Made by a program: the position numbers and the translations under genes. The notes under the pieces are model-generated. The model was not told where the DNA came from. It searched no databases and was given only the letters and a program-made list of their open reading frames with translations. From Escherichia coli (GTDB lineage Bacteria; Pseudomonadota; Gammaproteobacteria; Enterobacterales; Enterobacteriaceae), in the NCBI RefSeq assembly GCF_044647545.1, contig NZ_CP172818.1: a stretch of DNA of 64,000 nt; one strand, written 5' to 3'. Shown here piece by piece: positions 8,585-63,968 of the stretch. The first letter of the stretch is position 1. Every line of letters begins with the position of its first letter.

Positions 8585-8830
8585 ATGCGCATTACTATTT
8601 ACACTCGTAACGATTGCGTTCAGTGCCACGCCACCAAACGGGCGATGGAAAACCGGGGCTTTGATTTTGAAATGATTAATGTCGATCGCGTTCCTGAAGC
8701 GGCAGAAGCGCTGCGTGCTCAGGGCTTTCGTCAGTTGCCGGTTGTGATTGCAGGCGATCTTAGCTGGTCTGGTTTCCGCCCGGACATGATCAATCGTCTG
8801 CATCCAGCGCCACACGCGGCCAGTGCATGA
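8585..8830 (+). CDS. nrdH: glutaredoxin-like protein NrdH
   Basis: ORF track 8585..8830, 81 aa; CVQC redox motif; first gene of nrdHIEF. Confidence 0.96.
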
Positions 8831-33414: not shown

Positions 33415-34952
<1,538 letters not shown>

Positions 34953-36648: not shown

Positions 36649-37422
36649 ATGAAACCTCGTCAGCGTCAGGCCGCCATTCTGGAGTATCTGCAAAAGCAGG
36701 GTAAATGCTCGGTTGAAGAATTGGCGCAATACTTTGACACCACAGGCACAACCATTCGCAAAGATCTGGTCATTCTGGAACATGCCGGAACCGTCATTCG
36801 TACTTATGGCGGAGTGGTGTTGAATAAAGAGGAATCCGATCCGCCTATCGATCATAAAACACTCATCAACACCCACAAGAAAGAGCTGATTGCAGAAGCT
36901 GCCGTTAGTTTTATCCATGATGGCGATTCGATCATTCTTGATGCTGGCAGTACCGTTTTGCAGATGGTTCCCCTGCTCTCGCGCTTTAATAACATCACAG
37001 TGATGACCAACAGCCTGCATATCGTCAATGCGCTATCCGAACTGGATAACGAACAAACTATCCTGATGCCAGGCGGAACATTTCGTAAAAAATCGGCCTC
37101 ATTTCACGGGCAACTGGCAGAGAATGCCTTCGAGCATTTCACCTTCGATAAATTGTTTATGGGCACCGACGGCATCGATCTCAATGCGGGCGTAACCACG
37201 TTCAACGAGGTTTATACCGTCAGTAAGGCAATGTGCAATGCCGCGCGCGAAGTGATTTTGATGGCGGACTCATCAAAGTTTGGCCGTAAAAGCCCCAACG
37301 TAGTTTGCAGTCTTGAAAGCGTCGATAAGCTAATTACCGACGCAGGTATCGATCCAGCGTTTCGTCAGGCGCTGGAAAAGAAAGGGATCGACGTGATCAT
37401 AACCGGAGAGAGCAATGAGTGA
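36649..37422 (+). CDS. srlR: DeoR-family glucitol operon repressor
   Basis: ORF track 36649..37422, 257 aa. Confidence 0.95.
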
Positions 37423-40077: not shown

Positions 40078-41517
40078 ATGTCTATTGTGGTGAAAAATAA
40101 CATTCATTGGGTTGGTCAACGTGACTGGGAAGTGCGTGATTTTCACGGTACAGAATATAAAACGCTGCGCGGCAGCAGCTACAACAGCTACCTCATCCGT
40201 GAAGAAAAAAACGTGCTGATCGACACCGTCGACCATAAATTCAGCCGCGAATTTGTGCAGAACCTGCGTAATGAAATCGATCTGGCAGATATCGATTACA
40301 TCGTAATTAACCATGCTGAAGAGGACCACGCCGGGGCGCTGACCGAACTGATGGCGCAAATTCCCGATACGCCGATCTACTGTACAGCCAACGCTATCGA
40401 CTCGATAAATGGTCATCACCATCATCCGGAGTGGAATTTTAATGTGGTGAAAACTGGCGACACGCTGGATATCGGCAACGGCAAACAGCTCATTTTTGTC
40501 GAAACGCCAATGCTGCACTGGCCGGACAGCATGATGACTTACCTGACAGGCGACGCGGTGCTATTCAGTAACGATGCTTTCGGTCAGCACTACTGCGACG
40601 AGCATCTGTTCAACGATGAAGTGGATCAGACGGAGCTTTTCGAGCAGTGCCAGCGTTACTACGCCAATATCCTGACGCCGTTCAGCCGCCTGGTAACGCC
40701 GAAAATTACCGAGATCCTGGGCTTTAACTTGCCAGTCGATATGATAGCGACCTCTCACGGCGTGGTATGGCGCGATAACCCGACGCAAATTGTCGAGCTG
40801 TACCTGAAATGGGCGGCGGATTATCAGGAAGACAGAATCACCATTTTCTACGACACCATGTCGAATAACACCCGCATGATGGCTGACGCTATCGCCCAGG
40901 GGATTGCGGAAACCGACCCACGCGTGGCGGTGAAAATTTTCAACGTCGCCCGAAGCGATAAAAACGAAATCCTGACCAATGTCTTCCGCTCAAAAGGCGT
41001 CCTGGTCGGCACTTCGACGATGAATAATGTGATGATGCCGAAAATCGCCGGGCTGGTGGAGGAGATGACCGGATTACGCTTCCGTAACAAACGCGCCAGT
41101 GCTTTCGGCTCTCACGGCTGGAGCGGCGGTGCGGTGGATCGTCTTTCCACGCGCCTGCAGGATGCGGGTTTCGAAATGTCGCTTAGCCTGAAAGCCAAAT
41201 GGCGACCAGACCAGGACGCTCTGGAGTTATGTCGTGAACACGGTCGCGAAATCGCCCGTCAGTGGGCGCTCGCGCCGCTGCCGCAGAGCACGGTGAATAC
41301 GGTGGTTAAAGAAGAAACCTCTGCCGCCACGACGGCTGACCTCGGCCCACGGATGCAATGCAGCGTCTGCCAGTGGATTTACGATCCGGCAAAAGGTGAG
41401 CCAATGCAGGACGTTGCGCCAGGAACGCCGTGGAGTGAAGTCCCGGATAACTTCCTGTGCCCGGAATGCTCTCTCGGCAAAGACGTCTTTGACGAACTGG
41501 CATCGGAGGCAAAATGA
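40078..41517 (+). CDS. norV: anaerobic NO reductase flavorubredoxin
   Basis: ORF track 40078..41517, 479 aa; metallo-beta-lactamase-like, flavodoxin and C-terminal rubredoxin (CxxC...CxxC) regions. Confidence 0.96.
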
Positions 41518-49980: not shown

Positions 49981-50006
49981 GCCCGATAAGCGTAGCGCAT
50001 CGGGCA
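49981..50006. repeat. REP element downstream of ascB
   Basis: gcccgataagcgtagcgcatcgggca palindrome. Confidence 0.55.
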
Positions 50007-50124
50007 ATCTGGGGTTTGGCATCAGAAAAAAAAAGCTGGTGGCCTGTGCAGGCAGCACTAAGCTCAATAAAAAAGCGCACATCCCTGTTCTGATGTTCAA
50101 TTCCCTGAATTCCTTACTGAAAAA

Positions 50125-50595
50125 CTACTCTTCTTCCACCGCTAACTGCGCGAAGCCGCCGTTCCCTTCCCAGCCTTCCAGACGTTGATAAACGGTTTCC
50201 ACCGCATCTTTAATCGGCTGGGTCATCGGGTAGTAAAAGCCGACGATATCCGGCTGGATGCCGAGGAAAATCACTTCGCCAATGTCTTCTTTCAACTGGT
50301 CGATAAGGTAGTTCAGCGGCATGTTATGGGTAGTCATCATAAACATCTCGGCGATATCATCCGGGTCGATGATGCGGATTTCGCCGGGGTTTAGCCCCAT
50401 ATCCGTGGCGTCAACAATCAGCAGTCGTGTAGGGCGCAGTTCACGGATAGCGACGATGTCGTTTTCCGGTGCGCTACCGCCGTCAATCACCACCCAGTTA
50501 CCTTTCGGTGCGGCGGCGCACTTTTCCGCCAGCAGCGGACCTGCGCCATCATCGCCCATCATGCTATTGCCAACACAGAGTAAAACGTCAGTCAC
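50125..50595 (-). CDS. hycI: hydrogenase 3 maturation endopeptidase
   Basis: ORF track 50125..50595, 156 aa. Confidence 0.95.
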   Translation of the reverse strand: MTDVLLCVGNSMMGDDGAGPLLAEKCAAAPKGNWVVIDGGSAPENDIVAIRELRPTRLLIVDATDMGLNPGEIRIIDPDDIAEMFMMTTHNMPLNYLIDQLKEDIGEVIFLGIQPDIVGFYYPMTQPIKDAVETVYQRLEGWEGNGGFAQLAVEEE

Positions 50596-50998
50596 GCAGT
50601 CTCCTCACCATCAAATAGATGGCGTTTTCCTGATGAATATCATGCAGCATACTTAACAGCATTGTACTCCATTCTTTCTGCTGCGAAGTTTGCGCTGCCC
50701 GGGCTTTATCGAATGCGTTGGCCAGCATCGGCACATGGTTAATGTCGATGACGATCTCACCATATTTCGGCACGCCTTCCATTTTGCGGCGGGCTTCGCT
50801 GCCCGCCTCCAGAGTGGCAATCCATGCCAGATAGTCATCCCACGGGCAGGTAAGTGCCGCTTCCAGGCAATCGATAACCCCAAGGTGGTGACCAATCGCC
50901 AGGCTGTAATAGACCACCTGCTGCGCCTCGGCGGGCGTGGCATCGTTCTCATCAATAAATTTACGGCTCAGTTGACTGAACACCACCTTTTCAATCAT
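50588..50998 (-). CDS. hycH: formate hydrogenlyase maturation protein HycH
   Basis: ORF track 50588..50998, 136 aa. Confidence 0.95.
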
Positions 50999-51762
50999 CG
51001 GATACGCGCCTCTTCAACAACATGATTCAGATGGCTGACAATCTCGTTCAGACGCGGATCGTTTTCCGCTTCCAGCCAGCGTGCAACCTGTTCTTCGCCC
51101 TGCCCTAACTGTGTCAGGAAGTCATCGGCAATCTGACGACCGTAACGATAACCCGCCAGGCGGCGTGCTTCGCGATCCACTTTCACGCGCAGCGGCTGCA
51201 CCATATCGCCATGAAGGATTTCCGCCGGTTGTTCATCCTGCTCACCCGGGCCACGGGCGTGAATTTTCTGCTCCAGCAGGCCGAGCGCCATTGCAAAGCC
51301 GTACAGCGTGGCGGCTGGCGTTGGCGGGCACCCCGGAATGTAGACATCCACCGGGACGATTTTATCCGTACCGCCCCACACGCAGTAGAGATCGTGGAAA
51401 ATGCCACCGCTGTTACCGCAGGCACCGTAGGAGATACAGATTTTCGGGTCCGGCGCGGACTGCCACGCACGCAGCGCAGGGGATCGCATTGCACGGGTGA
51501 CCGCGCCGGTAAACAGTAAAATATCCGCATGACGCGGTGAAGGAACGACTTTAATGCCGAAGCGTTCTGCATCAAACAGCGGCGAAAGCGTGGCGAAAAT
51601 TTCGATTTCGCAGCCGTTGCAGCCGCCGCAGTCCACGCGGTAAACGTAGGCAGAACGTTTGATTTTTTTCAGTAACGACGCCTTCATGCTGGCGATGGAT
51701 TCATCCACCGTCATCGGGACCGGAATGCCGTTGGCGTCACGGGGGCCTAATAAATTGCTCAT
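50995..51762 (-). CDS. hycG: hydrogenase 3 small subunit
   Basis: ORF track 50995..51762, 255 aa. Confidence 0.95.
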
Positions 51763-52304
51763 CAGATGGCCTCTTTCATATGGCGAGTCAGTTCAATACG
51801 GTCGGACGGCACCAGGCATTTCTGGCGCTTACATTCCGGGCAAGTCTCAAAGCTTTCGCGGTGGTTTTCCGCGCGGCTGTCGCCGTTGTGCTTAAGCAGC
51901 GCAATGGCGTAGTCGATCTCTTTCTGGACGGCGAAAGGACGATTGCAGACGCGGCAGTTGCACAGCGCGAAGCGGGACTGTTGCAGGAAGTCTTCTTTCT
52001 TCCACACCGCCAGTTCGTATTCTTGCGACAGCTTAATCGCCGCCGTCGGACAGACTTCTTCACAGCGTCCACAGAAGATGCAGCGCCCGAGATTGAACTG
52101 CCACGCCAGCTCTCCTGTGGCGAGGTCAGTTTCAACCGTTAAGGCGTTTGACGGGCAGGCATTGACGCAGGCCGCACAGCCGATGCACTGCTGCGGGTTC
52201 TGCTCTGGCTTACCACGGAAGTTTTTATCAACCGCAATCGGCTCCAGCGGATAAGACGAGGTCGCCGTGCCGGTTTTGATAACTTTTTTGATAAAGGTAA
52301 ACAT
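51762..52304 (-). CDS. hycF: formate hydrogenlyase 4Fe-4S subunit
   Basis: ORF track 51762..52304, 180 aa; two CxxCxxCxxxCP motifs. Confidence 0.95.
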
Positions 52305-52313
52305 GGCGACTCC

Positions 52314-54023
52314 TTATTTCAGCGGCGAGTTTTTACGCTCAATGCTGTAGCGCTCGAGTTCTTTGTACGGCACCACTTTGCTCTTCTTCTTACGTACATC
52401 GACCACGGTCATGCGGTCGGTACAGGAGTAGCAAGGGTCCAGGCTACCGATAATCAACGGCGCATCGGAAACGGTGTTGCCGCGCAGCATGTAGCGCAGG
52501 GTCGGCCAGTTTGCGTAGGTCGCCGCACGGCAGCGCCAGCGGTACAGCTTCTGGTTGTCGCCGGTCATGCTCCAGTGGATATCGTCGCCGCGCGGCGCTT
52601 CGGCAAAGCCCAGCGCGAAACGGTGCGGAATGTAGGTAAAGCCTTCCACCATCAGCGGGCCGCCCGGCAGGTTATCCAGACCGTAATCGATCATATTCAG
52701 CGCGGTATAGACTTCGTTGATACGCACTTTCAGACGGGAAATAACGTCGCAGCCCTGCTCGCTGTGGACTTCCATTGGCAGCAGGCCATAACCAACAAAC
52801 GGGTGATCGGCACGGGTATCACGGGCGTGACCGCTGGCACGGACCATCGGGCCAACGTTACTGAAGTCGCGAGCGATTTCCGGGTCCAGACGACCAATAC
52901 CGACGGTGCGTTGTTCCATGTTCGGTGTGCTCAGCAGCACATCCACCAGCTCCTGCACTTCACGACGCATCTGTTGTGCCAGCTGGCGGGTCTGGATCAT
53001 GTCGTCTTTCAGCAGATCGCGACGAATCCCGCCGATCAGGTTCAGGCCGTAGGTTTTACGTGCACCGGTAAGGATCTCTGCCATTTTCATGGAGGTTTCA
53101 CGCACGCGGAAGAACTGCATAAAGCCGGAGTCGAAGCCGGTAAAGTGACAGGCGAGGCCGAGGTTGAGCAGATGCGAGTGCAGGCGTTCTACCTCCAGCA
53201 GAATGGCGCGGATCATCTGCGCACGTTCTGGCACCTGAATACCCATCGCGTTTTCCACCGACGTGGTGTAGGCGGTGCTGTGAGCAAAGCCGCAGATCCC
53301 GCACACACGGTCAGAGAGGAAGGTCACTTCGTTGTAACCCATGCGGGTTTCCGCCAGTTTTTCCATGCCGCGATGGACATAGAACAGGCGGTAGTCGGCG
53401 TCGATAATGTTTTCGCCATCGACGAACAGACGGAAGTGGCCCGGTTCGTCAGAAGTGACGTGCAGCGGACCAATCGGCACGACATTGTTTTTCTTGTCGC
53501 CCAGTTCGTTGATGAACTCGTAGGTTTCAGCATCGGTAGTCGGTGCCGGACGCTGACGATAATCCATGCTGTCTTTACGCAGCGGATAAAGTTCATCCGG
53601 CCAGTCATCCGGCAGCACCAGACGACGTTCATCCGGAAGCCCTACCGGAATCAAACCGTACATATCGCGCACTTCGCGCTCGCCCCACACCGCCGCCGGA
53701 ACGCGCGGTGTCACGGACGGATATTCCGGTTTGTTGGCGTCAACTTCGACGCGCACGGTTATCCAGCATTTGGTGCCCTTCTCCATCGACAGCACGTAGT
53801 AAACGGCGTAATGACCATTCAGTTTGCGTTCGTCGTTACCAAACAGCACCGACAGCCAGCCACCCTGCTTGTAATAGAGAAACTCCACCACTTCCGGCAG
53901 GTAGTTTACCTTCACGGTCACGGTCAGCTGATCTTTGGTCTGCCAGGCGTGGTCCAGCACGACGCCCGGAAATGCCTCATTCAGCGCGGCGAGATAATGT
54001 TGACCTAATTTTTCTTCAGACAT
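52314..54023 (-). CDS. hycE: hydrogenase 3 large (NiFe catalytic) subunit
   Basis: ORF track frame 52314..54044; start placed at ATG 54023 (MSEEKLGQHYLAALNEAF...). Confidence 0.95.
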   Translation of the reverse strand: MSEEKLGQHYLAALNEAFPGVVLDHAWQTKDQLTVTVKVNYLPEVVEFLYYKQGGWLSVLFGNDERKLNGHYAVYYVLSMEKGTKCWITVRVEVDANKPEYPSVTPRVPAAVWGEREVRDMYGLIPVGLPDERRLVLPDDWPDELYPLRKDSMDYRQRPAPTTDAETYEFINELGDKKNNVVPIGPLHVTSDEPGHFRLFVDGENIIDADYRLFYVHRGMEKLAETRMGYNEVTFLSDRVCGICGFAHSTAYTTSVENAMGIQVPERAQMIRAILLEVERLHSHLLNLGLACHFTGFDSGFMQFFRVRETSMKMAEILTGARKTYGLNLIGGIRRDLLKDDMIQTRQLAQQMRREVQELVDVLLSTPNMEQRTVGIGRLDPEIARDFSNVGPMVRASGHARDTRADHPFVGYGLLPMEVHSEQGCDVISRLKVRINEVYTALNMIDYGLDNLPGGPLMVEGFTYIPHRFALGFAEAPRGDDIHWSMTGDNQKLYRWRCRAATYANWPTLRYMLRGNTVSDAPLIIGSLDPCYSCTDRMTVVDVRKKKSKVVPYKELERYSIERKNSPLK

Positions 54024-54040
54024 GCTCAAACTCTCTTTAA

Positions 54041-54964
54041 TCACGCCGCCAGCAAGGAGACGAACGCTAAAAATGCAAAGCCAAACCCAGCCCAGGTAAT
54101 GCGCGGAGTAATATCAAGACGCAGACGGGCCATGCTGTTTTCGAACAGCGCGATAACCAGTACGCCGACCACCAGTTTGACGATGGCAATCACCAGTGCC
54201 AGCAGCAGCCCACCGACGGTGAAGGTTTCCATTTGTCCCCACGGAATAAACACCCCGACGAACATCTGCAACACCACCAGCTGTTTCAGGCTGATGCCCC
54301 ATTTCATGACGCCAAAACCGCTGCCGCTGTACTCAGAGAGCGGACCTTCCTGCAACTCCTGCTCGGCTTCCGCCAGGTCGAACGGCAGTTTGCCCATTTC
54401 GATAAAAGTGGCGAACGCACAGGCACAAAGCGCCAGCACCAGCGGGATGCTCTGGCTCAGTGGCCAGTGATAAACGGTGTCGGTGATGTTGCTGATGTTG
54501 GTGGAACCGGCAACCTGTGCGGCGACCCACAGACCAAGCAGCAGCATCGGTTCAACCAACACGCCAAGCATCGCTTCACGGCTCGCGCCGATAGCGGTAA
54601 ACGGGCTACCGGTATCCAGACCAGAAATGGCAAAGAAGAAACGCGCGATGGCGAAGAGATACAGTAAGGTGATCAAATCGCCCAGTTGCGGCAGCGGAGA
54701 ACCCACGGTCACCACCGGCAGCGCAGTGGCGATAGTCAGCATGACGCCCACCATCACATACGGCGTCAGGCGGAACACCCAGCCGGAGGCATCCGGGCCA
54801 ACGCTCTGGCGACCCAGCAGTTTGATAATGTCGCGATACTCCTGCAACACGCCCGGCCCGCGACGGTTATGCAAGCGGGCGCGCGCCACGCGGGTTATAC
54901 CGGAGAGCAGCGGCGCAACGGCAAATAACACCAGCGCCTGAATTAACGGATATAAAACACTCAT
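54041..54964 (-). CDS. hycD: formate hydrogenlyase membrane subunit (NuoH-like)
   Basis: ORF track 54041..54964, 307 aa. Confidence 0.95.
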   Translation of the reverse strand: MSVLYPLIQALVLFAVAPLLSGITRVARARLHNRRGPGVLQEYRDIIKLLGRQSVGPDASGWVFRLTPYVMVGVMLTIATALPVVTVGSPLPQLGDLITLLYLFAIARFFFAISGLDTGSPFTAIGASREAMLGVLVEPMLLLGLWVAAQVAGSTNISNITDTVYHWPLSQSIPLVLALCACAFATFIEMGKLPFDLAEAEQELQEGPLSEYSGSGFGVMKWGISLKQLVVLQMFVGVFIPWGQMETFTVGGLLLALVIAIVKLVVGVLVIALFENSMARLRLDITPRITWAGFGFAFLAFVSLLAA

Positions 54965-54966
54965 TC

Positions 54967-56793
54967 TCAGGCTCCTCGTGAAACAATAATCACCACCAGC
55001 ACCGCCAGTTCAACCAGCGCCATCCGGCGGAACAGCAACGCACTCCCCTCGCACTGCCAGCCCGGCACCAGCGACACCGGATTCAGCCATTTGCGTAGTT
55101 TCAGCACCGGCGCAAACGCCTGTTTCACCGGCATGGCAAAACCGTGAGCGGTAATCACCATTGATTTTTCATGATCGTAGCCGCACACCCAGGCCGCGCC
55201 GCGGGAACGCGACGGCAAACGATCGCCTTTGCAAATCGCCATAATGATGAATGGCAGCAGCGGGCAGGCAATCAGCAGCAACGTGATCATGGGTTGAGAA
55301 ACGGTGGTGTTAGCAGGCTCCAGCGGCAGAGGTACAGCAGCAGAGAGCATCGGCAGTAGCCACGGCGCAGCAACACCGCCAATTACGCAGCAAATCGCCA
55401 GTGCCACTACGCTTACGCTCATCAGGAGCGGCGCACAGGTGGCGTTTTCGGCCTCTTTGGTACGCGGCGCGCCGAGGAAAGTAACGCCATAAACTTTCGC
55501 CATACACATCACCGCCAGCGCACCGGTAATTGCCAGCCCCACGGCAAGCAGCGGCCCGAGAAGACGGGCAACAAACGCGCCACTATTGCTCAGTTTGAAG
55601 AAGGATTGATAGATAACCCATTCCCCGGCAAACCCGTTCAGCGGCGGCAGCGCAGCCATTGCCATCAGCCCGACTAACATGGCGATGGAGATAACCGGCA
55701 TTTTCTTGCCAATACCACCGAGTTTTTCGATATCGCGATGACCGGTACGGAACCAGACGCTCCCCGCCCCGAGGAAAAGCACGCTTTTGAACAGGCTATG
55801 GTTAAGCAGATGGTACAGACCACCAACCAGACCAAGGGCAATCAGCGCCGGTTGTTCGAGCGCGATACCCGTTACGCCAGCGCCCAGCCCCAGCAGGATA
55901 ATGCCGATATTTTCCAGGGTGTGGTAAGCCAGCAGGCGCTGGATGTTATGCTCCATCAGCGCATACAGACCACCGACGAACGCGGTGATCATACCGAGCA
56001 CCAGCAGCGCGATCCCCCACCACAGCGGTGCGTTACCGCCCAGCAGTGACAGGGTTAAAATGCCCAGCAGGCCAATTTTCATGACTACCGTAGAAAACAA
56101 CGCGGCAGCTGGCGCAGAGGCGTTAGCATGTGCCTGCGGCACCCAGCCGTGCAGCGGAATAATCCCTGCCAGCAGACCAAAGCCAATCACACCGAGCAGC
56201 CAGATATCGGAACCGAGCGGCAGCTGTTGCATACGCATATCCAGCAGGCGCAGATCCAGCGTGCCGTAACGCTGCCACAGCAGCCAGCAAGCAATCGCCA
56301 GCAGCAGAGTGCCAAGACGTCCCAGAGCAAACCACAGTTTGCCCTCTTTGCTGTTGCTGGTGAGGAACACCGCACACAGGGCCATGATTTCGGCCATTAC
56401 CACGAACATGCCGAGGTTGCTGGCGATGACGGCACAGACGGCGGCAGCCATCAACATATTGATCTGCAAGCCGTTGCACTTCACCTGCGCGTGGCGATGC
56501 CAGTCAATGTTGTAGAGGCTGATAAACAGACCGCACAGACCGAGCGTAATCAGCCAAATCGCGTTAAGCGGAGAGATTTGCACATCGTAGCTTACCAGCG
56601 ACAGCGCACCGCTCACGCCAACCGCGCCAGTCAGCACTGTGAAGCCCGCGGCTGCCGTATACAGGCCACCCACCGCGCCGCCAATTCCGGCTATCCAGCC
56701 GCTTAGCGCCTTTTGAAAAGAAAAGAGAAATGCCAGAACAGCGGCGGCGACAAACCACGCCACGCCGCTATTGATCAGGGAAATTGCGCTCAT
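54967..56793 (-). CDS. hycC: formate hydrogenlyase membrane subunit (NuoL-like)
   Basis: ORF track 54967..56793, 608 aa. Confidence 0.95.
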   Translation of the reverse strand: MSAISLINSGVAWFVAAAVLAFLFSFQKALSGWIAGIGGAVGGLYTAAAGFTVLTGAVGVSGALSLVSYDVQISPLNAIWLITLGLCGLFISLYNIDWHRHAQVKCNGLQINMLMAAAVCAVIASNLGMFVVMAEIMALCAVFLTSNSKEGKLWFALGRLGTLLLAIACWLLWQRYGTLDLRLLDMRMQQLPLGSDIWLLGVIGFGLLAGIIPLHGWVPQAHANASAPAAALFSTVVMKIGLLGILTLSLLGGNAPLWWGIALLVLGMITAFVGGLYALMEHNIQRLLAYHTLENIGIILLGLGAGVTGIALEQPALIALGLVGGLYHLLNHSLFKSVLFLGAGSVWFRTGHRDIEKLGGIGKKMPVISIAMLVGLMAMAALPPLNGFAGEWVIYQSFFKLSNSGAFVARLLGPLLAVGLAITGALAVMCMAKVYGVTFLGAPRTKEAENATCAPLLMSVSVVALAICCVIGGVAAPWLLPMLSAAVPLPLEPANTTVSQPMITLLLIACPLLPFIIMAICKGDRLPSRSRGAAWVCGYDHEKSMVITAHGFAMPVKQAFAPVLKLRKWLNPVSLVPGWQCEGSALLFRRMALVELAVLVVIIVSRGA

Positions 56794-57401
56794 TTAGCCT
56801 CTCCACTTTGAGCCTGCTGAAACAAGGTGAGATCGCCAAAGTCCGTGTTAAAAGTCAGCTCACGCTTACGTTTGCTGACGCGGGCGATATCGGTGTTATC
56901 CACCAGATGCAGGGCTTTAGTCGGGCACATCCGCACGCAGGCCGGACCTTGTTCATCAAAACTACAAAGGTCACATTTGACGGCGATCGCGCGAATACCT
57001 GGCACCCAGTCAAGCAATGTGCTGACACGCGCCGGAGCAGGCGGTGCCGGTGGCGCTTTCGGGGTATTGGCGTTTGCCGGAATATCCAGCGGACGGCTGC
57101 CGGAAAATTCAATTGCGCCAAACGGGCAGGCGATGCCGCACAGTTTGCAGCTTACGCACAGACTTTCATTCAACTGCACGGCCCCATCAACGCGGGTGAT
57201 GGCGTTAACCGGGCAAACCACCGCACAGGGCGCATCTTCACAGTGGTGACAGAGCTGCGGCGCAGATTCTTTTTCATTGAGCATCACTCGCAGGCGCGGC
57301 ATTGATTGCAGGCCGTGCTGGCGATGCGTCTCTGAACAGGCGGCCTCACAGGTGTGGCAGCCGATACAGAGCGTGGAGTCAGCAATTACAAAACGATTCA
57401 C
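56790..57401 (-). CDS. hycB: formate hydrogenlyase 4Fe-4S electron transfer subunit
   Basis: ORF track 56790..57401, 203 aa; initiation codon read in sequence is GTG (plus-strand cac at 57399-57401) with GAGGA RBS. Confidence 0.95.
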   Translation of the reverse strand: MNRFVIADSTLCIGCHTCEAACSETHRQHGLQSMPRLRVMLNEKESAPQLCHHCEDAPCAVVCPVNAITRVDGAVQLNESLCVSCKLCGIACPFGAIEFSGSRPLDIPANANTPKAPPAPPAPARVSTLLDWVPGIRAIAVKCDLCSFDEQGPACVRMCPTKALHLVDNTDIARVSKRKRELTFNTDFGDLTLFQQAQSGEAK

Positions 57402-57525
57402 CAGGCATTCCTCAGGTGATTGTCATTTTTGACGAAAACATGCCGATGAAATGTCATTTTCGACACTCATCGACACGCCCATCCCCAAACAGGCGTAACG
57501 CCTGCAAAACGGGCAAAGCCTCAGC

Positions 57526-57987
57526 TCATGCTGCCGGGCTTTGTCCCTTTACCAGTTGGCTTAAATTCACCGGCACATTGTTTTCAATGGCGGTGTATAA
57601 GCTGTCGTAAACGCCAGCGATTTTTTCGAGATAGTGTTCCAGAACCTGTTCGCGATCGCGGATGTTGACCTTGCCATCAATCATGCCGTCAATGCTCAGT
57701 TGCGCCTGCGCAATCCGCTGTTTGTCTTCACCCTCTTTCGTTTCGACGTAATACTCGATGGTGTGGCTGTTAAAGCCATCCGCCAGGGTGACGTAAATAC
57801 GAAAATGTTCAAAAAGGACGAAACAGAGTTCTTTGTCCGGCGCGCAGCTCATGGCGTGATGCAGGCGCGCTTTCGATAACGTGATCCCCTGAACCAGCGA
57901 ATTGCAGTAGATGTGCCACTGGTCCTGTAGGCGACGATGCCGCTGTGCGATGTAATCGGCTTTCTCGCTTATTTCCCAAATAGTCAT
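57526..57987 (-). CDS. hycA: formate hydrogenlyase regulatory protein HycA
   Basis: ORF track 57526..57987, 153 aa. Confidence 0.95.
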   Translation of the reverse strand: MTIWEISEKADYIAQRHRRLQDQWHIYCNSLVQGITLSKARLHHAMSCAPDKELCFVLFEHFRIYVTLADGFNSHTIEYYVETKEGEDKQRIAQAQLSIDGMIDGKVNIRDREQVLEHYLEKIAGVYDSLYTAIENNVPVNLSQLVKGQSPAA

Positions 57988-58022
57988 TGTCAGGTTACCC
58001 GTTTAACAGAGATGCCAGCTTT

Positions 58023-58040
58023 AAGCATTTTTTATGCCAA
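58023..58040 (-). promoter_or_regulatory. candidate sigma54 promoter of the hyc operon
   Basis: Minus strand reads TGGCAT-aaaaaa-TGCT with GG-N10-GC spacing, about 35 bp upstream of the hycA start; hyc is known to be sigma54/FhlA-dependent. Confidence 0.6.
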
Positions 58041-58152
58041 CTTTTAATTCATTGTTATTAAAACGATTTTTAAGCTAAAGATGAATTTCGTCGCCGTGTC
58101 GACGTGTCATTTCGACATCATCGACATTATTCACCGCAGGGATAATCAACAC

Positions 58153-58168
58153 TGGCACAATTATTGCT
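58153..58168 (+). promoter_or_regulatory. sigma54 promoter of the hyp operon
   Basis: TGGCAC-aatta-TTGCT, about 30 bp upstream of the hypA ATG. Confidence 0.75.
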
Positions 58169-58198
58169 TGTAGCTGGCAATAGTTAATGGGAGGCGAT

Positions 58199-58549
58199 AT
58201 GCACGAAATAACCCTCTGCCAACGGGCACTGGAATTGATCGAACAGCAGGCCGCAAAACACGGCGCAAAACGCGTAACTGGGGTCTGGCTCAAAATTGGC
58301 GCATTTTCTTGTGTCGAAACCAGCTCTCTTGCCTTTTGTTTTGATCTGGTTTGCCGCGGCAGCGTGGCGGAAGGTTGTAAACTGCACCTCGAAGAACAAG
58401 AGGCCGAATGCTGGTGTGAAACATGCCAACAGTATGTGACGCTACTGACCCAGCGCGTCCGCCGCTGTCCACAGTGTCATGGCGACATGCTACAAATTGT
58501 GGCAGACGACGGTTTACAGATTCGGCGGATAGAAATAGACCAGGAGTGA
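58199..58549 (+). CDS. hypA: hydrogenase nickel insertion protein HypA
   Basis: ORF track frame 58187..58549; start placed at ATG 58199 (MHEITLCQ...) with GGGAGG RBS; CxxC...CxxC zinc motif. Confidence 0.95.
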   Translation: MHEITLCQRALELIEQQAAKHGAKRVTGVWLKIGAFSCVETSSLAFCFDLVCRGSVAEGCKLHLEEQEAECWCETCQQYVTLLTQRVRRCPQCHGDMLQIVADDGLQIRRIEIDQE

Positions 58550-58552
58550 GCG

Positions 58553-59425
58553 ATGTGTACAACATGCGGTTGCGGTGAAGGCAACCTGTATATCGAGGGT
58601 GATGAACATAACCCTCATTCCGCGTTTCGTAGCGCGCCATTTGCCCCGGCGGCACGCCCGAAGATGAAAATCACCGGCATTAAAACGCCTGAATTTACCC
58701 CCAGCCAGACTGAAGAAGGCGACCTGCATTACGGTCATGGCGAAGCGGGCACTCACGCGCCGGGCATGAGCCAGCGTCGGATGCTGGAAGTCGAAATTGA
58801 CGTGCTGGACAAAAATAACCGTCTGGCTGAACGCAACCGCGCGCGCTTTGCTGCCCGCAAGCAACTGGTGCTCAACCTGGTTTCCAGCCCTGGTTCCGGT
58901 AAAACCACCCTGCTGACGGAAACCTTAATGCGCCTGAAAGACAGCGTTCCGTGCGCGGTTATTGAAGGCGATCAGCAAACCGTGAACGATGCCGCACGCA
59001 TTCGTGCTACCGGCACACCAGCGATTCAGGTGAATACCGGTAAAGGCTGCCATCTCGACGCTCAGATGATTGCCGACGCCGCACCGCGCCTGCCACTGGA
59101 CGATAACGGTATTCTGTTTATCGAAAACGTTGGCAACCTGGTATGCCCGGCCAGCTTCGATCTCGGTGAAAAACACAAAGTGGCGGTGCTTTCCGTTACC
59201 GAAGGTGAAGACAAACCGCTGAAATATCCGCACATGTTTGCCGCCGCCTCGCTGATGCTGCTCAACAAAGTTGACTTGCTGCCGTATCTCAATTTCGACG
59301 TTGAGAAGTGCATCGCCTGCGCCCGTGAAGTCAATCCAGAAATTGAAATCATCCTTATTTCCGCCACCAGCGGCGAAGGGATGGACCAGTGGCTGAACTG
59401 GCTGGAGACACAGCGATGTGCATAG
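58553..59425 (+). CDS. hypB: hydrogenase nickel-binding GTPase HypB
   Basis: ORF track 58553..59425, 290 aa; N-terminal CxxCGC motif; GTPase P-loop GSPGSGKTT. Confidence 0.95.
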
Positions 59426-59688
59426 GCGTTCCCGGCCAGATCCGCACCATTGACGGCAACCAGGCGAAAGTCGACGTCTGCGGCATTCAGCGCGATGTCG
59501 ATTTAACGTTAGTCGGCAGCTACGATGAAAACGGTCAGCCACGCGTAGGCCAGTGGGTACTGGTTCACGTTGGCTTTGCCATGAGCGTAATTAATGAAGC
59601 CGAAGCGCGCGACACTCTCGACGCCTTACAAAACATGTTTGACGTTGAGCCGGATGTCGGTGCGCTGTTGTATGGCGAGGAAAAATAA
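59416..59688 (+). CDS. hypC: hydrogenase maturation chaperone HypC
   Basis: ORF track frame 59389..59688; start placed at ATG 59416 (MCIGVPGQ...); 90 aa. Confidence 0.95.
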
Positions 59689-60809
59689 TGCGTTTTGTTG
59701 ATGAATATCGCGCGCCGGAACAGGTGATGCAGTTAATTGAGCATCTGCGCGAACGTGCTTCACATCTCTCTTACACCGCCGAACGCCCTCTGCGGATTAT
59801 GGAAGTGTGTGGCGGTCATACCCACGCCATTTTTAAATTCGGCCTCGACCAGTTGCTGCCGGAAAACGTTGAGTTTATCCACGGTCCCGGTTGCCCGGTG
59901 TGTGTACTGCCGATGGGTAGAATCGACACCTGCGTGGAGATTGCCAGCCATCCGGAAGTCATCTTCTGTACCTTTGGCGACGCCATGCGCGTACCAGGGA
60001 AACAGGGTTCGCTGTTACAGGCAAAAGCGCGCGGTGCCGATGTGCGCATCGTTTACTCGCCGATGGATGCGTTGAAACTGGCGCAGGAGAATCCAACCCG
60101 CAAAGTGGTGTTCTTCGGCTTAGGTTTTGAAACCACCATGCCGACCACCGCCATCACTCTGCAACAGGCAAAAGCCCGCGATGTGCAGAATTTTTACTTC
60201 TTCTGCCAGCACATTACGCTCATCCCAACACTGCGCAGTTTGCTGGAACAGCCGGATAACGGTATCGACGCGTTCCTCGCGCCCGGCCACGTCAGTATGG
60301 TGATTGGCACTGATGCCTATAATTTTATCGCCAGCGATTTTCATCGTCCGCTGGTGGTGGCTGGTTTCGAACCGCTTGATCTACTGCAAGGCGTGGTCAT
60401 GCTGGTGGAGCAGAAAATAGCGGCCCACAGCAAGGTAGAGAATCAGTATCGTCGGGTGGTGCCGGATGCCGGTAACCTGCTGGCGCAACAGGCGATTGCC
60501 GATGTGTTCTGTGTCAACGGCGACAGCGAATGGCGCGGCTTAGGCGTGATTGAATCTTCTGGTGTACACCTGACGCCGGATTATCAACGATTCGATGCCG
60601 AAGCGCATTTCCGCCCGGCACCGCAGCAGGTCTGCGATGACCCGCGCGCACGTTGTGGAGAAGTATTAACGGGCAAATGTAAGCCGCATCAATGCCCGCT
60701 GTTTGGTAACACCTGTAATCCTCAAACCGCGTTTGGTGCGCTGATGGTTTCCTCCGAAGGAGCGTGCGCCGCGTGGTATCAGTATCGTCAGCAGGAGAGT
60801 GAAGCGTGA
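59688..60809 (+). CDS. hypD: hydrogenase maturation Fe-S protein HypD
   Basis: ORF track 59688..60809, 373 aa. Confidence 0.95.
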   Translation: MRFVDEYRAPEQVMQLIEHLRERASHLSYTAERPLRIMEVCGGHTHAIFKFGLDQLLPENVEFIHGPGCPVCVLPMGRIDTCVEIASHPEVIFCTFGDAMRVPGKQGSLLQAKARGADVRIVYSPMDALKLAQENPTRKVVFFGLGFETTMPTTAITLQQAKARDVQNFYFFCQHITLIPTLRSLLEQPDNGIDAFLAPGHVSMVIGTDAYNFIASDFHRPLVVAGFEPLDLLQGVVMLVEQKIAAHSKVENQYRRVVPDAGNLLAQQAIADVFCVNGDSEWRGLGVIESSGVHLTPDYQRFDAEAHFRPAPQQVCDDPRARCGEVLTGKCKPHQCPLFGNTCNPQTAFGALMVSSEGACAAWYQYRQQESEA

Positions 60810-61816
60810 ATAATATCCAACTCGCCCACGGTAGCGGCGGCCAGGCGATGCAGCAATTAATCAACAGCCTGTTTATGGAAGCCTTTGCCAACCCATGGCT
60901 GGCAGAGCAGGAAGATCAGGCCCGTCTTGATCTGGCGCAGCTGGTAGCGGAAGGCGACCGTCTGGCGTTCTCCACCGACAGCTACGTCATCGACCCGCTG
61001 TTCTTTCCTGGTGGCAATATCGGCAAGTTGGCGATTTGCGGCACCGCGAACGACGTAGCGGTCAGTGGCGCTATTCCGCGTTATCTCTCCTGTGGATTTA
61101 TCCTTGAAGAAGGATTACCGATGGAGACGCTGAAAGCCGTTGTGACCAGCATGGCAGAAACCGCCCGCGCGGCAGGCATTGCCATCGTTACTGGCGACAC
61201 TAAAGTGGTGCAGCGCGGCGCGGCAGATAAACTGTTTATCAACACCGCTGGTATGGGCGCAATTCCGGCGAATATTCACTGGGGCGCACAGACGCTAACC
61301 GCAGGCGATGTATTGCTGGTTAGCGGTACACTCGGCGACCACGGGGCGACTATCCTTAACCTGCGTGAGCAGCTGGGGCTGGATGGCGAACTGGTCAGCG
61401 ACTGTGCGGTACTAACGCCGCTTATTCAGACGCTGCGTGACATTCCCTGCGTGAAAGCGCTGCGTGATGCCACCCGTGGTGGTGTAAACGCGGTGGTACA
61501 TGAGTTCGCGGAAGCCTGCGGTTGTGGTATTGAAATTTCAGAAGCGGCACTGCCGGTTAAACCTGCTGTGCGCGGCGTTTGCGAACTGCTGGGACTGGAC
61601 GCCCTTAACTTTGCCAACGAAGGCAAACTGGTGATCGCCGTTGAACGCAACGCGGCAGAGCAAGTGCTGGCAGCGTTACATTCCCATCCACTGGGAAAAG
61701 ACGCGGCGCTGATTGGTGAAGTGGTGGAACGTAAAGGTGTTCGTCTTGCCGGTCTATATGGCGTGAAACGAACCCTCGATTTACCACACGCCGAACCGCT
61801 TCCGCGTATATGCTAA
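60806..61816 (+). CDS. hypE: hydrogenase maturation carbamoyl dehydratase HypE
   Basis: ORF track 60806..61816, 336 aa; C-terminal ...PRIC. Confidence 0.95.
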   Translation: MNNIQLAHGSGGQAMQQLINSLFMEAFANPWLAEQEDQARLDLAQLVAEGDRLAFSTDSYVIDPLFFPGGNIGKLAICGTANDVAVSGAIPRYLSCGFILEEGLPMETLKAVVTSMAETARAAGIAIVTGDTKVVQRGAADKLFINTAGMGAIPANIHWGAQTLTAGDVLLVSGTLGDHGATILNLREQLGLDGELVSDCAVLTPLIQTLRDIPCVKALRDATRGGVNAVVHEFAEACGCGIEISEAALPVKPAVRGVCELLGLDALNFANEGKLVIAVERNAAEQVLAALHSHPLGKDAALIGEVVERKGVRLAGLYGVKRTLDLPHAEPLPRIC

Positions 61817-61889
61817 TAAAATTCTAAATCTCCTATAGTTAGTCAATGACCTTTTGCACCGCTTTGCGGTGCTTTCCTGGAAGAACAAA

Positions 61890-63968
61890 ATGTCATATAC
61901 ACCGATGAGTGATCTCGGACAACAAGGGTTGTTCGACATCACTCGGACACTATTGCAGCAGCCCGATCTGGCCTCGCTGTGTGAGGCTCTTTCGCAACTG
62001 GTAAAGCGTTCTGCGCTCGCCGACAACGCGGCTATTGTGTTGTGGCAAGCGCAGACTCAACGTGCGTCTTATTACGCGTCGCGTGAAAAAGACACCCCCA
62101 TTAAATATGAAGACGAAACTGTTCTGGCACACGGTCCGGTACGCAGCATTTTGTCGCGCCCTGATACGCTGCATTGCAGTTACGAAGAATTTTGTGAAAC
62201 CTGGCCGCAGCTGGCCGCAGGTGGGCTATACCCCAAATTTGGTCACTATTGCCTGATGCCACTGGCGGCGGAAGGGCATATTTTTGGTGGCTGTGAATTT
62301 ATTCGTTATGACGATCGCCCGTGGAGTGAAAAAGAGTTCAATCGCCTGCAAACATTTACGCAGATCGTTTCTGTCGTCACCGAACAAATCCAGAGCCGCG
62401 TCGTTAACAATGTCGACTATGAGTTGTTATGCCGGGAACGCGATAACTTCCGCATCCTGGTCGCCATCACCAACGCGGTGCTTTCCCGCCTGGATATGGA
62501 CGAACTGGTCAGCGAAGTCGCCAAAGAAATCCATTACTATTTCGACATTGACGATATCAGCATTGTCTTACGCAGCCACCGTAAAAACAAACTCAACATC
62601 TACTCCACTCACTATCTTGATAAACAGCATCCCGCCCACGAACAGAGCGAAGTCGATGAAGCCGGAACCCTCACCGAACGCGTCTTCAAAAGTAAAGAGA
62701 TGCTGTTGATTAATCTCCACGAGCGGGACGATTTAGCCCCCTATGAACGCATGTTGTTCGACACCTGGGGCAACCAGATTCAAACCTTGTGCCTGTTACC
62801 GCTGATGTCTGGCGACACCATGCTGGGCGTGCTGAAACTGGCGCAATGCGAAGAGAAAGTATTTACCACTACCAATCTGAGCTTACTGCGCCAGATTGCC
62901 GAACGTGTGGCAATCGCTGTCGATAACGCCCTCGCCTATCAGGAAATTCATCGTCTGAAAGAACGGCTGGTTGATGAAAACCTCGCCCTGACCGAGCAGC
63001 TCAACAATGTTGATAGTGAATTTGGCGAGATTATTGGCCGCAGCGAAGCCATGTACAGCGTACTTAAACAAGTTGAAATGGTGGCGCAAAGTGACAGTAC
63101 CGTGCTGATCCTCGGTGAAACTGGTACAGGTAAAGAGCTGATTGCCCGCGCGATCCATAATCTCAGTGGGCGTAATAATCGCCGCATGGTCAAAATGAAC
63201 TGCGCGGCGATGCCTGCCGGATTGCTGGAGAGCGATCTATTTGGTCATGAGCGTGGGGCTTTTACCGGTGCCAGCGCTCAGCGCATTGGTCGTTTTGAAC
63301 TGGCGGATAAAAGCTCACTATTCCTCGATGAAGTGGGCGATATGCCGCTGGAGTTACAGCCGAAGTTGCTGCGTGTATTACAGGAACAGGAGTTTGAACG
63401 TCTTGGCAGCAACAAAATCATTCAGACGGACGTACGTTTAATTGCCGCGACTAACCGCGATCTGAAAAAAATGGTCGCAGACCGAGAGTTCCGTAGCGAT
63501 CTCTATTACCGCCTGAACGTATTCCCGATCCACCTGCCGCCACTACGCGAGCGTCCGGAAGATATTCCGCTGCTGGCGAAAGCCTTTACCTTCAAAATTG
63601 CCCGTCGTCTGGGGCGCAATATCGACAGCATTCCTGCCGAGACGCTGCGCATCCTGAGCAACATGGAATGGCCGTGCAACGTGCGTGAGCTGGAAAACGT
63701 CATTGAGCGCGCGGTATTGCTAACACGCGGCAACGTGCTGCAGCTGTCATTGCCAGATATTGCTTTACCAGAACCTGAAACGCCGCCTGCCGCAACGGTT
63801 GTCGCCCAGGAGGGCGAAGATGAATATCAGTTGATTGTTCGCGTGCTGAAAGAAACCAACGGCGTGGTTGCCGGGCCTAAAGGCGCTGCGCAACGTCTGG
63901 GGCTGAAACGCACGACTCTGCTGTCACGGATGAAGCGACTGGGAATTGATAAATCGGCATTGATTTAA
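61890..63968 (+). CDS. fhlA: formate hydrogenlyase transcriptional activator (sigma54-dependent)
   Basis: ORF track frame 61854..63968; start placed at ATG 61890 (MSYTPMSDLGQQGLFD...); AAA+ sigma54-interaction domain with GAFTGA motif. Confidence 0.95.
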   Translation: MSYTPMSDLGQQGLFDITRTLLQQPDLASLCEALSQLVKRSALADNAAIVLWQAQTQRASYYASREKDTPIKYEDETVLAHGPVRSILSRPDTLHCSYEEFCETWPQLAAGGLYPKFGHYCLMPLAAEGHIFGGCEFIRYDDRPWSEKEFNRLQTFTQIVSVVTEQIQSRVVNNVDYELLCRERDNFRILVAITNAVLSRLDMDELVSEVAKEIHYYFDIDDISIVLRSHRKNKLNIYSTHYLDKQHPAHEQSEVDEAGTLTERVFKSKEMLLINLHERDDLAPYERMLFDTWGNQIQTLCLLPLMSGDTMLGVLKLAQCEEKVFTTTNLSLLRQIAERVAIAVDNALAYQEIHRLKERLVDENLALTEQLNNVDSEFGEIIGRSEAMYSVLKQVEMVAQSDSTVLILGETGTGKELIARAIHNLSGRNNRRMVKMNCAAMPAGLLESDLFGHERGAFTGASAQRIGRFELADKSSLFLDEVGDMPLELQPKLLRVLQEQEFERLGSNKIIQTDVRLIAATNRDLKKMVADREFRSDLYYRLNVFPIHLPPLRERPEDIPLLAKAFTFKIARRLGRNIDSIPAETLRILSNMEWPCNVRELENVIERAVLLTRGNVLQLSLPDIALPEPETPPAATVVAQEGEDEYQLIVRVLKETNGVVAGPKGAAQRLGLKRTTLLSRMKRLGIDKSALI

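What the first reader, a model, noticed from the sequence alone, without database searches (positions are those of the whole stretch)
50588..61816. Extensive start/stop overlaps indicate translational coupling throughout the hyc and hyp operons
hycI/hycH (8 bp), hycH/hycG (4 bp), hycG/hycF (1 bp), hycC/hycB (4 bp), hypB/hypC (10 bp), hypC/hypD (1 bp) and hypD/hypE (4 bp) overlap. The same occurs at nrdH/nrdI, proV/proW, srlA/srlE, srlR/gutQ, norV/norW, yqaA/yqaB and ygaZ/ygaH. This is consistent with stoichiometric co-expression and supports the operon assignments. It is expected biology, but it also constrains start-codon choices.
Basis: seen in the sequence. Interest (0 to 1): 0.12.

Follow-up and report, generated by a model that had tools for sequence, protein, structure and literature searches.

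The report
Conserved start/stop overlaps in hyc-hyp operons
Neighbouring genes of the E. coli hydrogen-producing enzyme (hyc) and its maturation factors (hyp) overlap by 1-10 bases exactly as reported, and the overlaps are conserved across related bacteria. This is an ordinary, already catalogued operon feature, and nobody has measured coupled translation for these particular gene pairs.

Summary
The window is E. coli chromosome, gabD to fhlA.

**Observation.** They also match the E. coli K-12 distances published in the supplement of Huber et al. 2023.

**Comparative support.** In 80 Enterobacteriaceae loci, 469 of 500 instances of the seven hyc/hyp junctions still overlap.
- hypB/hypC is -10 in 68/68 loci, and hypD/hypE is -4 in 67/67.
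- When the geometry changes, it mostly flips between -4 and -1.
- Spacers at non-overlapping junctions drift widely (hycE/hycF 9-349 nt).
- Shine-Dalgarno motifs embedded in the upstream genes are conserved.
- Start positions are conserved. The hypE start varies ATG/GTG/TTG, which supports its GTG start.

**What is not shown.** Coupling is inferred. The only direct experiment is on the paralogous pair hyfH-hyfI.
- "Throughout" overstates the case: 5 of 12 intra-operon junctions do not overlap.
- The overlap density is ordinary for operons (7/11 versus 8/17 among close pairs, P=0.46).
- "Stoichiometric" does not fit HycH or HycI, which are absent from the solved seven-subunit complex.

**Verdict.** Observation confirmed, interpretation partly supported, already known, low interest.

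The parts
50125..57987 (-). hycABCDEFGHI operon (hycI 50125-50595 ... hycA 57526-57987)
   Evidence: RefSeq annotation transferred by exact match
58199..63968 (+). hypABCDE-fhlA operon (hypA 58199-58549, hypB 58553-59425, hypC 59416-59688, hypD 59688-60809, hypE 60806-61816, fhlA 61890-63968)
50588..50595 (-). hycH stop / hycI GTG start, 8-nt overlap (GTGACTGA), SD GAGGAG upstream
   Evidence: -8 in 64/73 species; the HycI sequences deposited in the PDB begin MTDV at this start
50995..50998 (-). hycG stop / hycH ATG start, ATGA (-4)
   Evidence: -4 in 54 and -1 in 18 of 73 species
51762..51762 (-). hycF stop / hycG ATG start, TGATG (-1)
   Evidence: -1 in 72 and -4 in 4 of 76 species; the paralogous pair hyfH-hyfI was shown experimentally to be coupled (PMC6728339, PMC10666635)
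56790..56793 (-). hycB stop / hycC ATG start, ATGA (-4)
   Evidence: -4 in 70 and -1 in 4 of 75 species
59416..59425 (+). hypB stop (TAG) / hypC ATG start, 10-nt overlap ATGTGCATAG
   Evidence: -10 in 68/68 species, TGCATAGG near-invariant
59688..59688 (+). hypC stop / hypD ATG start, TAATG (-1)
   Evidence: -1 in 47/68 species, the rest 0 to +3
60806..60809 (+). hypD stop / hypE GTG start, GTGA (-4)
   Evidence: -4 in 67/67 species with start ATG 57 / GTG 6 / TTG 4; the conserved HGSGG lies upstream of the Met15 start used in the PDB construct
58153..58168 (+). sigma-54 promoter motif TGGCACAATTATTGCT upstream of hypA (perfect consensus match)
58024..58039 (-). sigma-54 promoter motif TGGCATAAAAAATGCT upstream of hycA (2 mismatches)
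8827..8830 (+). nrdH/nrdI -4 overlap
   Evidence: K-12 table
   Evidence: K-12 table gives -28
13874..13881 (+). proV/proW -8 overlap
18214..18224 (+). ygaZ/ygaH -11 overlap
24807..24810 (-). yqaB/yqaA -4 overlap (GTG start of yqaA)
33993..33996 (+). srlA/srlE -4 overlap
37415..37422 (+). srlR/gutQ -8 overlap
41514..41517 (+). norV/norW -4 overlap

Best explanation
These are genuine, evolutionarily maintained start/stop overlaps inside two well-known E. coli operons, hycABCDEFGHI and hypABCDE-fhlA. The operons are transcribed divergently from sigma-54 promoters.

At each overlapping junction the downstream start codon shares bases with the upstream stop codon (-4, -1) or lies 8-10 nt before it. 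A Shine-Dalgarno motif is embedded in the last codons of the upstream gene.

The most likely mechanism is termination-reinitiation. A ribosome finishing the upstream cistron stays on the mRNA and, helped by the nearby SD, restarts at the adjacent start codon. Translation of hycC, hycG, hycH, hycI, hypC, hypD and hypE would then be tied to translation of the gene before it.

Shown here: the geometry, the SD motifs, the correctness of the start codons, and cross-species conservation. Inferred: that coupling occurs, and how strong it is. The non-overlapping junctions (hycB, hycE, hycF, probably hypB) most likely use independent initiation at their own SDs.
For: - Geometry is exact.
- The distances are identical to those tabulated for K-12 in a paper on translational coupling (PMC10666635 supplement).
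- 469/500 junction instances in up to 75 Enterobacteriaceae loci stay overlapping. hypB/C is -10 in 68/68 and hypD/E is -4 in 67/67. hycB/C, hycF/G and hycG/H flip only between -4 and -1. Control spacers vary: hycA/B about 70-145 nt, hycE/F 9-349 nt, hypE/fhlA about 30-236 nt. This holds although the proteins are only 76-92% identical at the median.
- SD cores (AGGAG, GGAG, GAGG) are conserved inside the upstream CDS. Third-codon positions in the SD zone are more conserved than those further upstream (0.76 versus 0.69, one-sided P=0.024).
- Start positions are conserved. Most species have no alternative upstream in-frame start.
- The paralogous pair hyfH-hyfI (counterpart of hycF-hycG) was shown to be coupled by termination-reinitiation. 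Four of five tested E. coli -4 pairs were coupled (PMC6728339, PMC10666635).
- Reporter studies find coupling most efficient between -4 and +3 nt (PMC12548453).
- Across 1,695 genomes the HypC-HypD gene pair has a typical distance of -4 (n=410).
Against: - There is no direct measurement for any hyc or hyp pair, and I found no ribosome-profiling paper covering hycE under anaerobic growth.
- Every downstream gene has its own SD (-5.8 to -9.3 kcal/mol), so independent initiation is possible.
- Predicted energy to open the initiation region is no higher for overlapping genes than for leading genes (P=0.31). It is low for hypE (4.4), hycH (7.5) and hypD (8.0 kcal/mol).
- bioBF has a -4 overlap yet is not coupled.
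- Overlaps longer than 4 nt reduce coupling efficiency in reporters. This bears on hycH/I (-8) and hypB/C (-10).
- A hyp operon with separated genes, each with its own RBS, complements hyp mutants.
Confidence: 0.72

Rival explanations
1. The overlaps are a neutral by-product of genome compaction. An NTG start already supplies three of the four bases of NTGA, so -4 and -1 arrangements arise easily. They then persist because both reading frames are under protein-level constraint. Each downstream gene is initiated independently at its own SD, and no meaningful coupling occurs.
For: - All downstream genes have recognisable SDs.
- Initiation regions are not predicted to be more structured than those of leading genes.
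- Overlap frequency is ordinary for closely spaced operon genes (7/11 versus 8/17, P=0.46).
- bioBF is uncoupled despite a -4 overlap.
- A decoupled synthetic hyp operon works.
Against: - When the geometry changes between species it lands on the other canonical arrangement (-4 to -1) rather than drifting. Non-overlapping spacers in the same operons drift freely.
- SD-zone synonymous sites are more conserved.
- The paralogous hyfH-hyfI pair is experimentally coupled, with only 10-30% independent initiation.
Confidence: 0.2
2. Coupling occurs by RNA unfolding rather than by reinitiation of the same ribosome. Ribosomes translating the end of the upstream gene melt a structure that hides the downstream SD and start codon, letting new 30S subunits bind.
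For: Predicted opening energies are high for some overlapping starts: hypC 17.9, hycI 14.6 and hycC 13.4 kcal/mol. The review lists RNA unfolding as one of two accepted models. Stable local structures were predicted at the coupled hyfHI start.
Against: There is no overall difference in opening energy between overlapping and leading genes. hypE, hycH and hypD are predicted to be open. In Huber et al. 2023 the last 15 nt of hyfH sufficed for coupling, which leaves little room for an occluding structure.
Confidence: 0.15
3. Some overlaps are annotation artefacts. The true start codons lie further downstream, so the overlaps would vanish on re-annotation.
For: HypE was crystallised from a construct whose native sequence begins at Met15 (PDB 2I6R). 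A start there would remove the hypD/hypE overlap. Three overlapping or operon-internal starts are GTG (hycI, hypE, hycB). hycE has an in-frame GTG at 54044 in a -4 arrangement with the hycD stop, which shows how spurious overlaps can be called.
Against: - The start position is conserved as ATG/GTG/TTG only in 67-76 species. In at least 57 species per gene there is no upstream in-frame alternative (hypC is the exception, at 35 of 68).
- HGSGG at HypE residues 8-12 is conserved and lies upstream of Met15. Homologous HypE structures align from residues 3-5.
- MCIG (HypC) and MTDV (HycI) N-termini are conserved.
- The hycE GTG at 54044 can be in frame only where the spacer is 17 nt (36/79 species), so it is correctly rejected.
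Confidence: 0.03

Closest known systems
E. coli K-12 hyc (b2717-b2725) and hyp (b2726-b2730) gene pairs as tabulated in Huber et al. 2023 (PMC10666635, supplementary E. coli gene-pair table)
   Same: The distances are identical for every pair: -8, -4, -1, +9, +2, -4, +124 in hyc and +3, -10, -1, -4, +73 in hyp. The other window pairs also match (nrdH/I -4, nrdI/E -28, proV/W -8, ygaZ/H -11, yqaB/A -4, srlA/E -4, srlR/gutQ -8, norV/W -4).
   Different: Nothing of substance. The window is a different strain with a few amino-acid differences, for example HycH begins MIEK here whereas most species have MSE-.
hyfH-hyfI of the E. coli hydrogenase-4 operon, the experimentally tested coupled pair
   Same: It encodes two hydrogenase subunits. 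From general knowledge of the two operons, these are the counterparts of HycF and HycG. The pair has a short start/stop overlap with an SD in the upstream gene, and it is tightly coupled by termination-reinitiation in reporter assays.
   Different: It is a different operon and lies outside this window. Coupling was measured there, not for hycF-hycG.
HypC-HypD and HypD-HypE gene pairs across 1,695 prokaryotic genomes (Huber et al. 2023 supplement)
   Same: The table gives a typical distance of -4 for HypC-HypD (n=410) and 0.9 for HypD-HypE (n=361, with -4 among its range values).
   Different: In E. coli hypC/hypD is -1 rather than -4. Within Enterobacteriaceae it ranges from -1 to +3.
Classical coupled pair rplK-rplA, as described in the Brown and Wade 2025 review (PMC12548453)
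   Same: Co-directional neighbours on one mRNA, where translation of the upstream gene promotes translation of the downstream gene.
   Different: That pair has direct genetic evidence and a defined regulatory use (spreading translational repression). No such role is known for hyc or hyp.

Membership tests
Translationally coupled overlapping gene pairs (termination-reinitiation class) | Co-directional genes on one transcript | tested here: met
   Same strand and contiguous. There are sigma-54 promoter motifs only in the hycA-hypA intergenic region and none in the hycA-hycB spacer. Promoter-like and terminator-like consensus hits are no more frequent than in shuffles. No transcript data were examined here.
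Translationally coupled overlapping gene pairs (termination-reinitiation class) | Stop-to-start spacing in the efficient range (about -8 to +6; optimum -4 to +3) | tested here: met
   Six of seven overlapping hyc/hyp junctions are -8, -4 or -1. hypB/hypC at -10 lies just outside the range (ranges).
Translationally coupled overlapping gene pairs (termination-reinitiation class) | SD motif for the downstream gene inside the 3' end of the upstream gene | tested here: met
   Duplex energies with the anti-SD are -5.8 to -9.3 kcal/mol. The SD cores are conserved across species.
Translationally coupled overlapping gene pairs (termination-reinitiation class) | Translation of the downstream gene depends on ribosomes reaching the upstream stop codon (the premature-stop test) | not testable with these tools
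   This needs reporter assays or ribosome profiling. It has been done only for the paralogous pair hyfH-hyfI.
E. coli formate hydrogenlyase (hyc) and hydrogenase maturation (hyp) operons | Gene content and order hycABCDEFGHI divergent from hypABCDE-fhlA | tested here: met
   RefSeq annotation of ~100% identical genomes. The HycB and HycI sequences are identical to the PDB chains 7Z0S_B and 2I8L. The same order was recovered in the Enterobacteriaceae loci.
Gene pairs encoding subunits of a heteromeric complex (the rationale for 'stoichiometric co-expression') | Both partners are subunits of one stable complex | tested here: inconclusive
   This holds for hycB/C and hycF/G, which are subunits of the solved seven-subunit FHL complex. 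The K-12 table marks hycG/H and hycH/I as 'CMPLX not', and marks hypB/C, hypC/D and hypD/E as 'CMPLX yes'. So 2 of the 7 overlapping pairs are not complex partners.

The most novel reading that the evidence does not exclude
The two non-canonical overlaps are held at fixed lengths because length sets a fixed, reduced reinitiation efficiency. They would act as built-in ratio setters, keeping HypC below HypB and HycI below HycH, rather than simply equalising expression. The overlaps concerned are hypB/hypC at -10 (invariant in 68/68 species, including a rare ATA Ile codon in hypC that supplies the hypB TAG stop) and hycH/hycI at -8 (64/73 species, mostly with a weak GTG start). The five loci in which hycH and hycI separate by 21-23 nt, three of them labelled Kluyvera, all have an ATG start. 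That would fit compensation for lost coupling.
Probability: 0.12. Interest if true: 0.25.

Novelty: already known. Interest (0 to 1): 0.06.

Why it matters
It matters little beyond annotation quality. The overlaps and their cross-species conservation give a cheap check on start codons. They support the 336-aa GTG-initiated HypE over a 322-aa form starting at Met15, and they reject an in-frame GTG extension of HycE. They also mark which hyc/hyp junctions should not be split carelessly when the operons are re-engineered for hydrogen production. The general phenomenon, and these specific distances, are already published.

Tried and rejected
- **Initiation-region structure.** I computed the predicted energy to open -20..+10 around each of 63 starts in the window. 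Overlapping genes did not differ from leading genes (medians 9.4 versus 8.7 kcal/mol, P=0.31). This cannot separate reinitiation from unfolding or from independent initiation.
- **Enrichment test.** The whole window is not enriched against the K-12 baseline (P=0.19). hyc/hyp is enriched only against the genome-wide baseline, not against other close pairs. I therefore dropped the idea that hyc/hyp is unusually overlap-rich.
- **Promoter and terminator scan.** Consensus hits in 49900-64000 are at or below shuffle expectation, so the scan is uninformative.
- **Window-wide sigma-54 pattern at 3 mismatches.** It gave 319 matches against 344 expected and was useless. I replaced it with a targeted scan.
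- **FNR-like site in hypA.** I looked for TTGAT-N4-ATCAA (up to 3 mismatches) in 58100-58560 to support the internal hypB promoter I recall from the literature. Nothing was found, so that point rests only on a secondary citation that FNR is needed for full hypBCDE expression.
- **Literature searches.** Searches for translational coupling in the hyc or hyp operon, and for ribosome profiling that covers hycE under anaerobic growth, returned nothing relevant.
- **hycE GTG at 54044.** I considered this -4-type overlap with hycD as a missed overlap. I rejected it because the spacer length is not conserved in frame (12-18 nt).
- **Rfam scan.** No RNA family lies at any junction.


Full report
**Identity of the window.** The region 50000-62500 matches 5,425 of 5,426 complete E. 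coli genomes and is ~100% identical to strains such as ECONIH1. The rest of the window behaves the same way. The window runs from gabD to fhlA. I transferred RefSeq CDS coordinates from ECONIH1 and WP4-S18-ESBL-09 by exact DNA matching, and every transferred CDS is an intact ORF in the window.

| Junction | Distance | Window coordinates | Sequence |
|---|---|---|---|
| hycH/hycI | -8 | 50588-50595 | GTGACTGA |
| hycG/hycH | -4 | 50995-50998 | ATGA |
| hycF/hycG | -1 | 51762 | TGATG |
| hycB/hycC | -4 | 56790-56793 | ATGA |
| hypB/hypC | -10 | 59416-59425 | ATGTGCATAG |
| hypC/hypD | -1 | 59688 | TAATG |
| hypD/hypE | -4 | 60806-60809 | GTGA |

Elsewhere in the window: nrdH/I -4, proV/W -8, ygaZ/H -11, yqaB/A -4, srlA/E -4, srlR/gutQ -8, norV/W -4.

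The remaining intra-operon junctions of hyc and hyp do not overlap: hycA/B +124, hycC/D +2, hycD/E +17, hycE/F +9, hypA/B +3. "Throughout" is therefore too strong.

**Is it more than chance?** The published E. coli K-12 baseline is 707 of 2,987 co-directional pairs (24%) within -8..+6 (PMC10666635).
- The window as a whole has 15/50 such pairs, which is not enriched (P=0.19).
- hyc/hyp has 8/13 (P=0.004 against the genome baseline).
- Among pairs no more than 60 nt apart, which are effectively operon-internal, hyc/hyp has 7/11 overlapping against 8/17 elsewhere in the window (P=0.46).

So the overlap density is normal for operons. Ten of the 15 overlaps in the window are -4 or -1 and three are -8. 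This is the distribution described genome-wide.

**Comparative evidence.** A HycE-seeded scan of one genome per species returned 80 Enterobacteriaceae loci carrying hyc and hyp. I located each orthologue with tblastn, extended it to its stop codon, and extrapolated the start by alignment. The junction distances were:

| Junction | Main distance | Other distances |
|---|---|---|
| hycB/C | -4 in 70/75 | -1 in 4, -23 in 1 |
| hycF/G | -1 in 72/76 | -4 in 4 |
| hycG/H | -4 in 54/73 | -1 in 18, +135 in 1 |
| hycH/I | -8 in 64/73 | +21 to +795 in 9 |
| hypB/C | -10 in 68/68 | none |
| hypC/D | -1 in 47/68 | 0 to +3 in 21 |
| hypD/E | -4 in 67/67 | none |

Overall, 469 of 500 junction instances remain overlapping, although median protein identity to the window is only 76-92% for most of these proteins.

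Spacers at non-overlapping junctions drift by contrast. hycA/B spans about 70-145 nt, hycD/E 12-18 nt, hycE/F 9-349 nt, and hypE/fhlA about 30-236 nt. The long hycE/F spacers are CCCTCTCCC/GGGAGAGGG palindromic repeats, each still followed by a GGAG before hycF.

SD cores inside the upstream coding sequence are conserved. Third-codon positions in the -15..-6 zone are more conserved than those further upstream (0.76 versus 0.69, one-sided P=0.024). This effect is modest and is carried by five of the seven junctions.

**Start-codon choices.** At the aligned start position every species has a start codon.
- hypE has ATG in 57 species, GTG in 6 and TTG in 4. hycI has GTG in 60 and ATG in 13. hycB has GTG in 75/75.
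- Most species have no upstream in-frame alternative.
- The E. coli HypE crystal construct (2I6R) begins its native sequence at Met15, which would remove the hypD/hypE overlap. However, the HGSGG motif at residues 8-12 is conserved, and HypE structures from other organisms align from residues 3-5. The overlapping GTG at 60806 is therefore the better start.
- hycE has an in-frame GTG at 54044 in a -4 arrangement with the hycD stop. It can be in frame only where the spacer is 17 nt (36/79 species), so the annotated ATG at 54023 stands.
- The window's HycI and HycB sequences are identical to the PDB chains over their full lengths.

**Operon context.** The 211-bp hycA-hypA intergenic region carries a perfect sigma-54 motif facing hypA (58153-58168) and a two-mismatch motif facing hycA (58024-58039). 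None lies in the hycA-hycB spacer. This fits the operon assignment. Generic sigma-70 and terminator scans were uninformative.

**Mechanism.** The best-supported reading is SD-assisted termination-reinitiation at the overlapping junctions.
- Direct evidence exists only by analogy. hyfH-hyfI encodes two hydrogenase subunits which, from my own knowledge of the two operons, correspond to HycF and HycG. That pair is tightly coupled in reporter assays, with 10-30% independent initiation. Four of five tested E. coli -4 pairs were coupled, and bioBF was not (PMC6728339, PMC10666635).
- Reporter work places optimal coupling at -4 to +3 nt and shows efficiency falling as overlaps lengthen (PMC12548453). 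hycH/I (-8) and hypB/C (-10) may therefore be coupled less efficiently.
- My folding analysis did not separate overlapping from leading genes (P=0.31). It cannot decide between reinitiation, RNA unfolding and independent initiation.
- A synthetic hyp operon with separated genes, each with its own RBS, complements E. coli hyp mutants (PMC5350229). Coupling is therefore not essential for function.

**Stoichiometry.** Short overlaps are 4.5-fold enriched among E. coli pairs that encode heteromeric complexes (30.4% versus 6.8%). HycB-G are subunits of the solved seven-subunit FHL complex (PMC9474812). The same K-12 table marks hycG/hycH and hycH/hycI as not complex-forming. HycH is annotated as an assembly protein and HycI as a maturation peptidase. 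"Stoichiometric co-expression" therefore explains only part of the pattern.

**Comparison with what is known, and verdict.** The exact distances for every pair in the finding are already tabulated for K-12 in a paper on translational coupling. HypC-HypD is listed there as a typically -4 pair across 410 genomes. Novelty is nil and interest is low. The least ordinary details are the absolute invariance of the -10 hypB/hypC overlap, with its rare ATA codon supplying the hypB stop, and the ATG-for-GTG change in the five loci where hycH and hycI separate by 21-23 nt. The latter probably reflects a single evolutionary event and was not tested further.

Noticed in passing
window 8387-8395 and 50026-50031: The window lacks two small islands that its otherwise ~100%-identical relatives carry. 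One is 1,875 bp between ygaM and nrdH (a PLP-dependent aminotransferase, annotated pdxR/MocR-like in some genomes, plus a carboxymuconolactone decarboxylase). The other is 568 bp between ascB and hycI (an HTH protein plus part of a 61-aa hypothetical). No complete E. coli genome in the collection gives a contiguous high-identity match across either empty site: the best is 88.5% at the first, and the listed best matches at the second are two-piece matches that contain the island.
   Followed up: partly
window ~42698-42745 (3' end of hypF, minus strand): A 1-bp difference from WP4-S18-ESBL-09 shifts the hypF C-terminus. The window ORF is 755 aa, against 746 aa annotated in that genome.
   Followed up: partly
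window 9210-9237: nrdI/nrdE overlap by 28 nt with a TTG start for nrdE. It is the same in K-12, and the NrdI-NrdA gene-pair row in the cross-genome table also shows a negative typical distance (-13.1, n=219).
   Followed up: partly
window 38377-38380 and 4193/4194: There are tail-to-tail junctions between convergent genes. gutQ and norR share 4 bp, and csiR and kbp abut with a 0-bp gap.
   Followed up: no
hycE-hycF spacer: window 52305-52313; loci L027, L036, L058, L064, L075, L048 and others: The spacer is 9 nt in E. coli but 78-349 nt in many other genera. The longer spacers are filled with CCCTCTCCC...GGGAGAGGG palindromic repeat units, each still followed by a GGAG before hycF. The one hyc junction with a free-standing SD is the one that tolerates insertions.
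   Followed up: partly
loci L027, L032, L033, L036, L037 (three labelled Kluyvera, one 'Enterobacteriaceae bacterium', one Kluyvera sichuanensis): In these five loci hycH and hycI are separated by 21-23 nt instead of overlapping by 8. In all five the hycI start is ATG, whereas it is GTG in most species with the overlap. This is probably one evolutionary event.
   Followed up: no
window 59416-59425: hypC codon 3 is the rare Ile codon ATA. TGCATAGG is near-invariant across the 68 species, because ATA plus the following G supplies the TAG stop of hypB. hypB and hypC both start with AUGUG and are listed in the AUGUG/GUGUG start-site study.
   Followed up: partly
window 22672-22743; 15997-16074; 25656-26244: Rfam hits: MicA sRNA between luxS and gshA, an naRNA4/CssrE match just after proX (barely above threshold), and a cluster of four tRNAs plus one longer tRNA, annotated as tRNA-Arg x4 and tRNA-Ser in the reference genome.
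   Followed up: no
window 40015-40030: A sigma-54 promoter-like motif, TGGCACGCAATCTGCA (1 mismatch), lies upstream of norV in the norR-norV divergent region.
   Followed up: no
window 50996-50998 (hycH codon 2): This strain's HycH begins MIEK (ATGATTGAAAAG), whereas most species have MSE-. The ATGA overlap with the hycG stop is unaffected.
   Followed up: no
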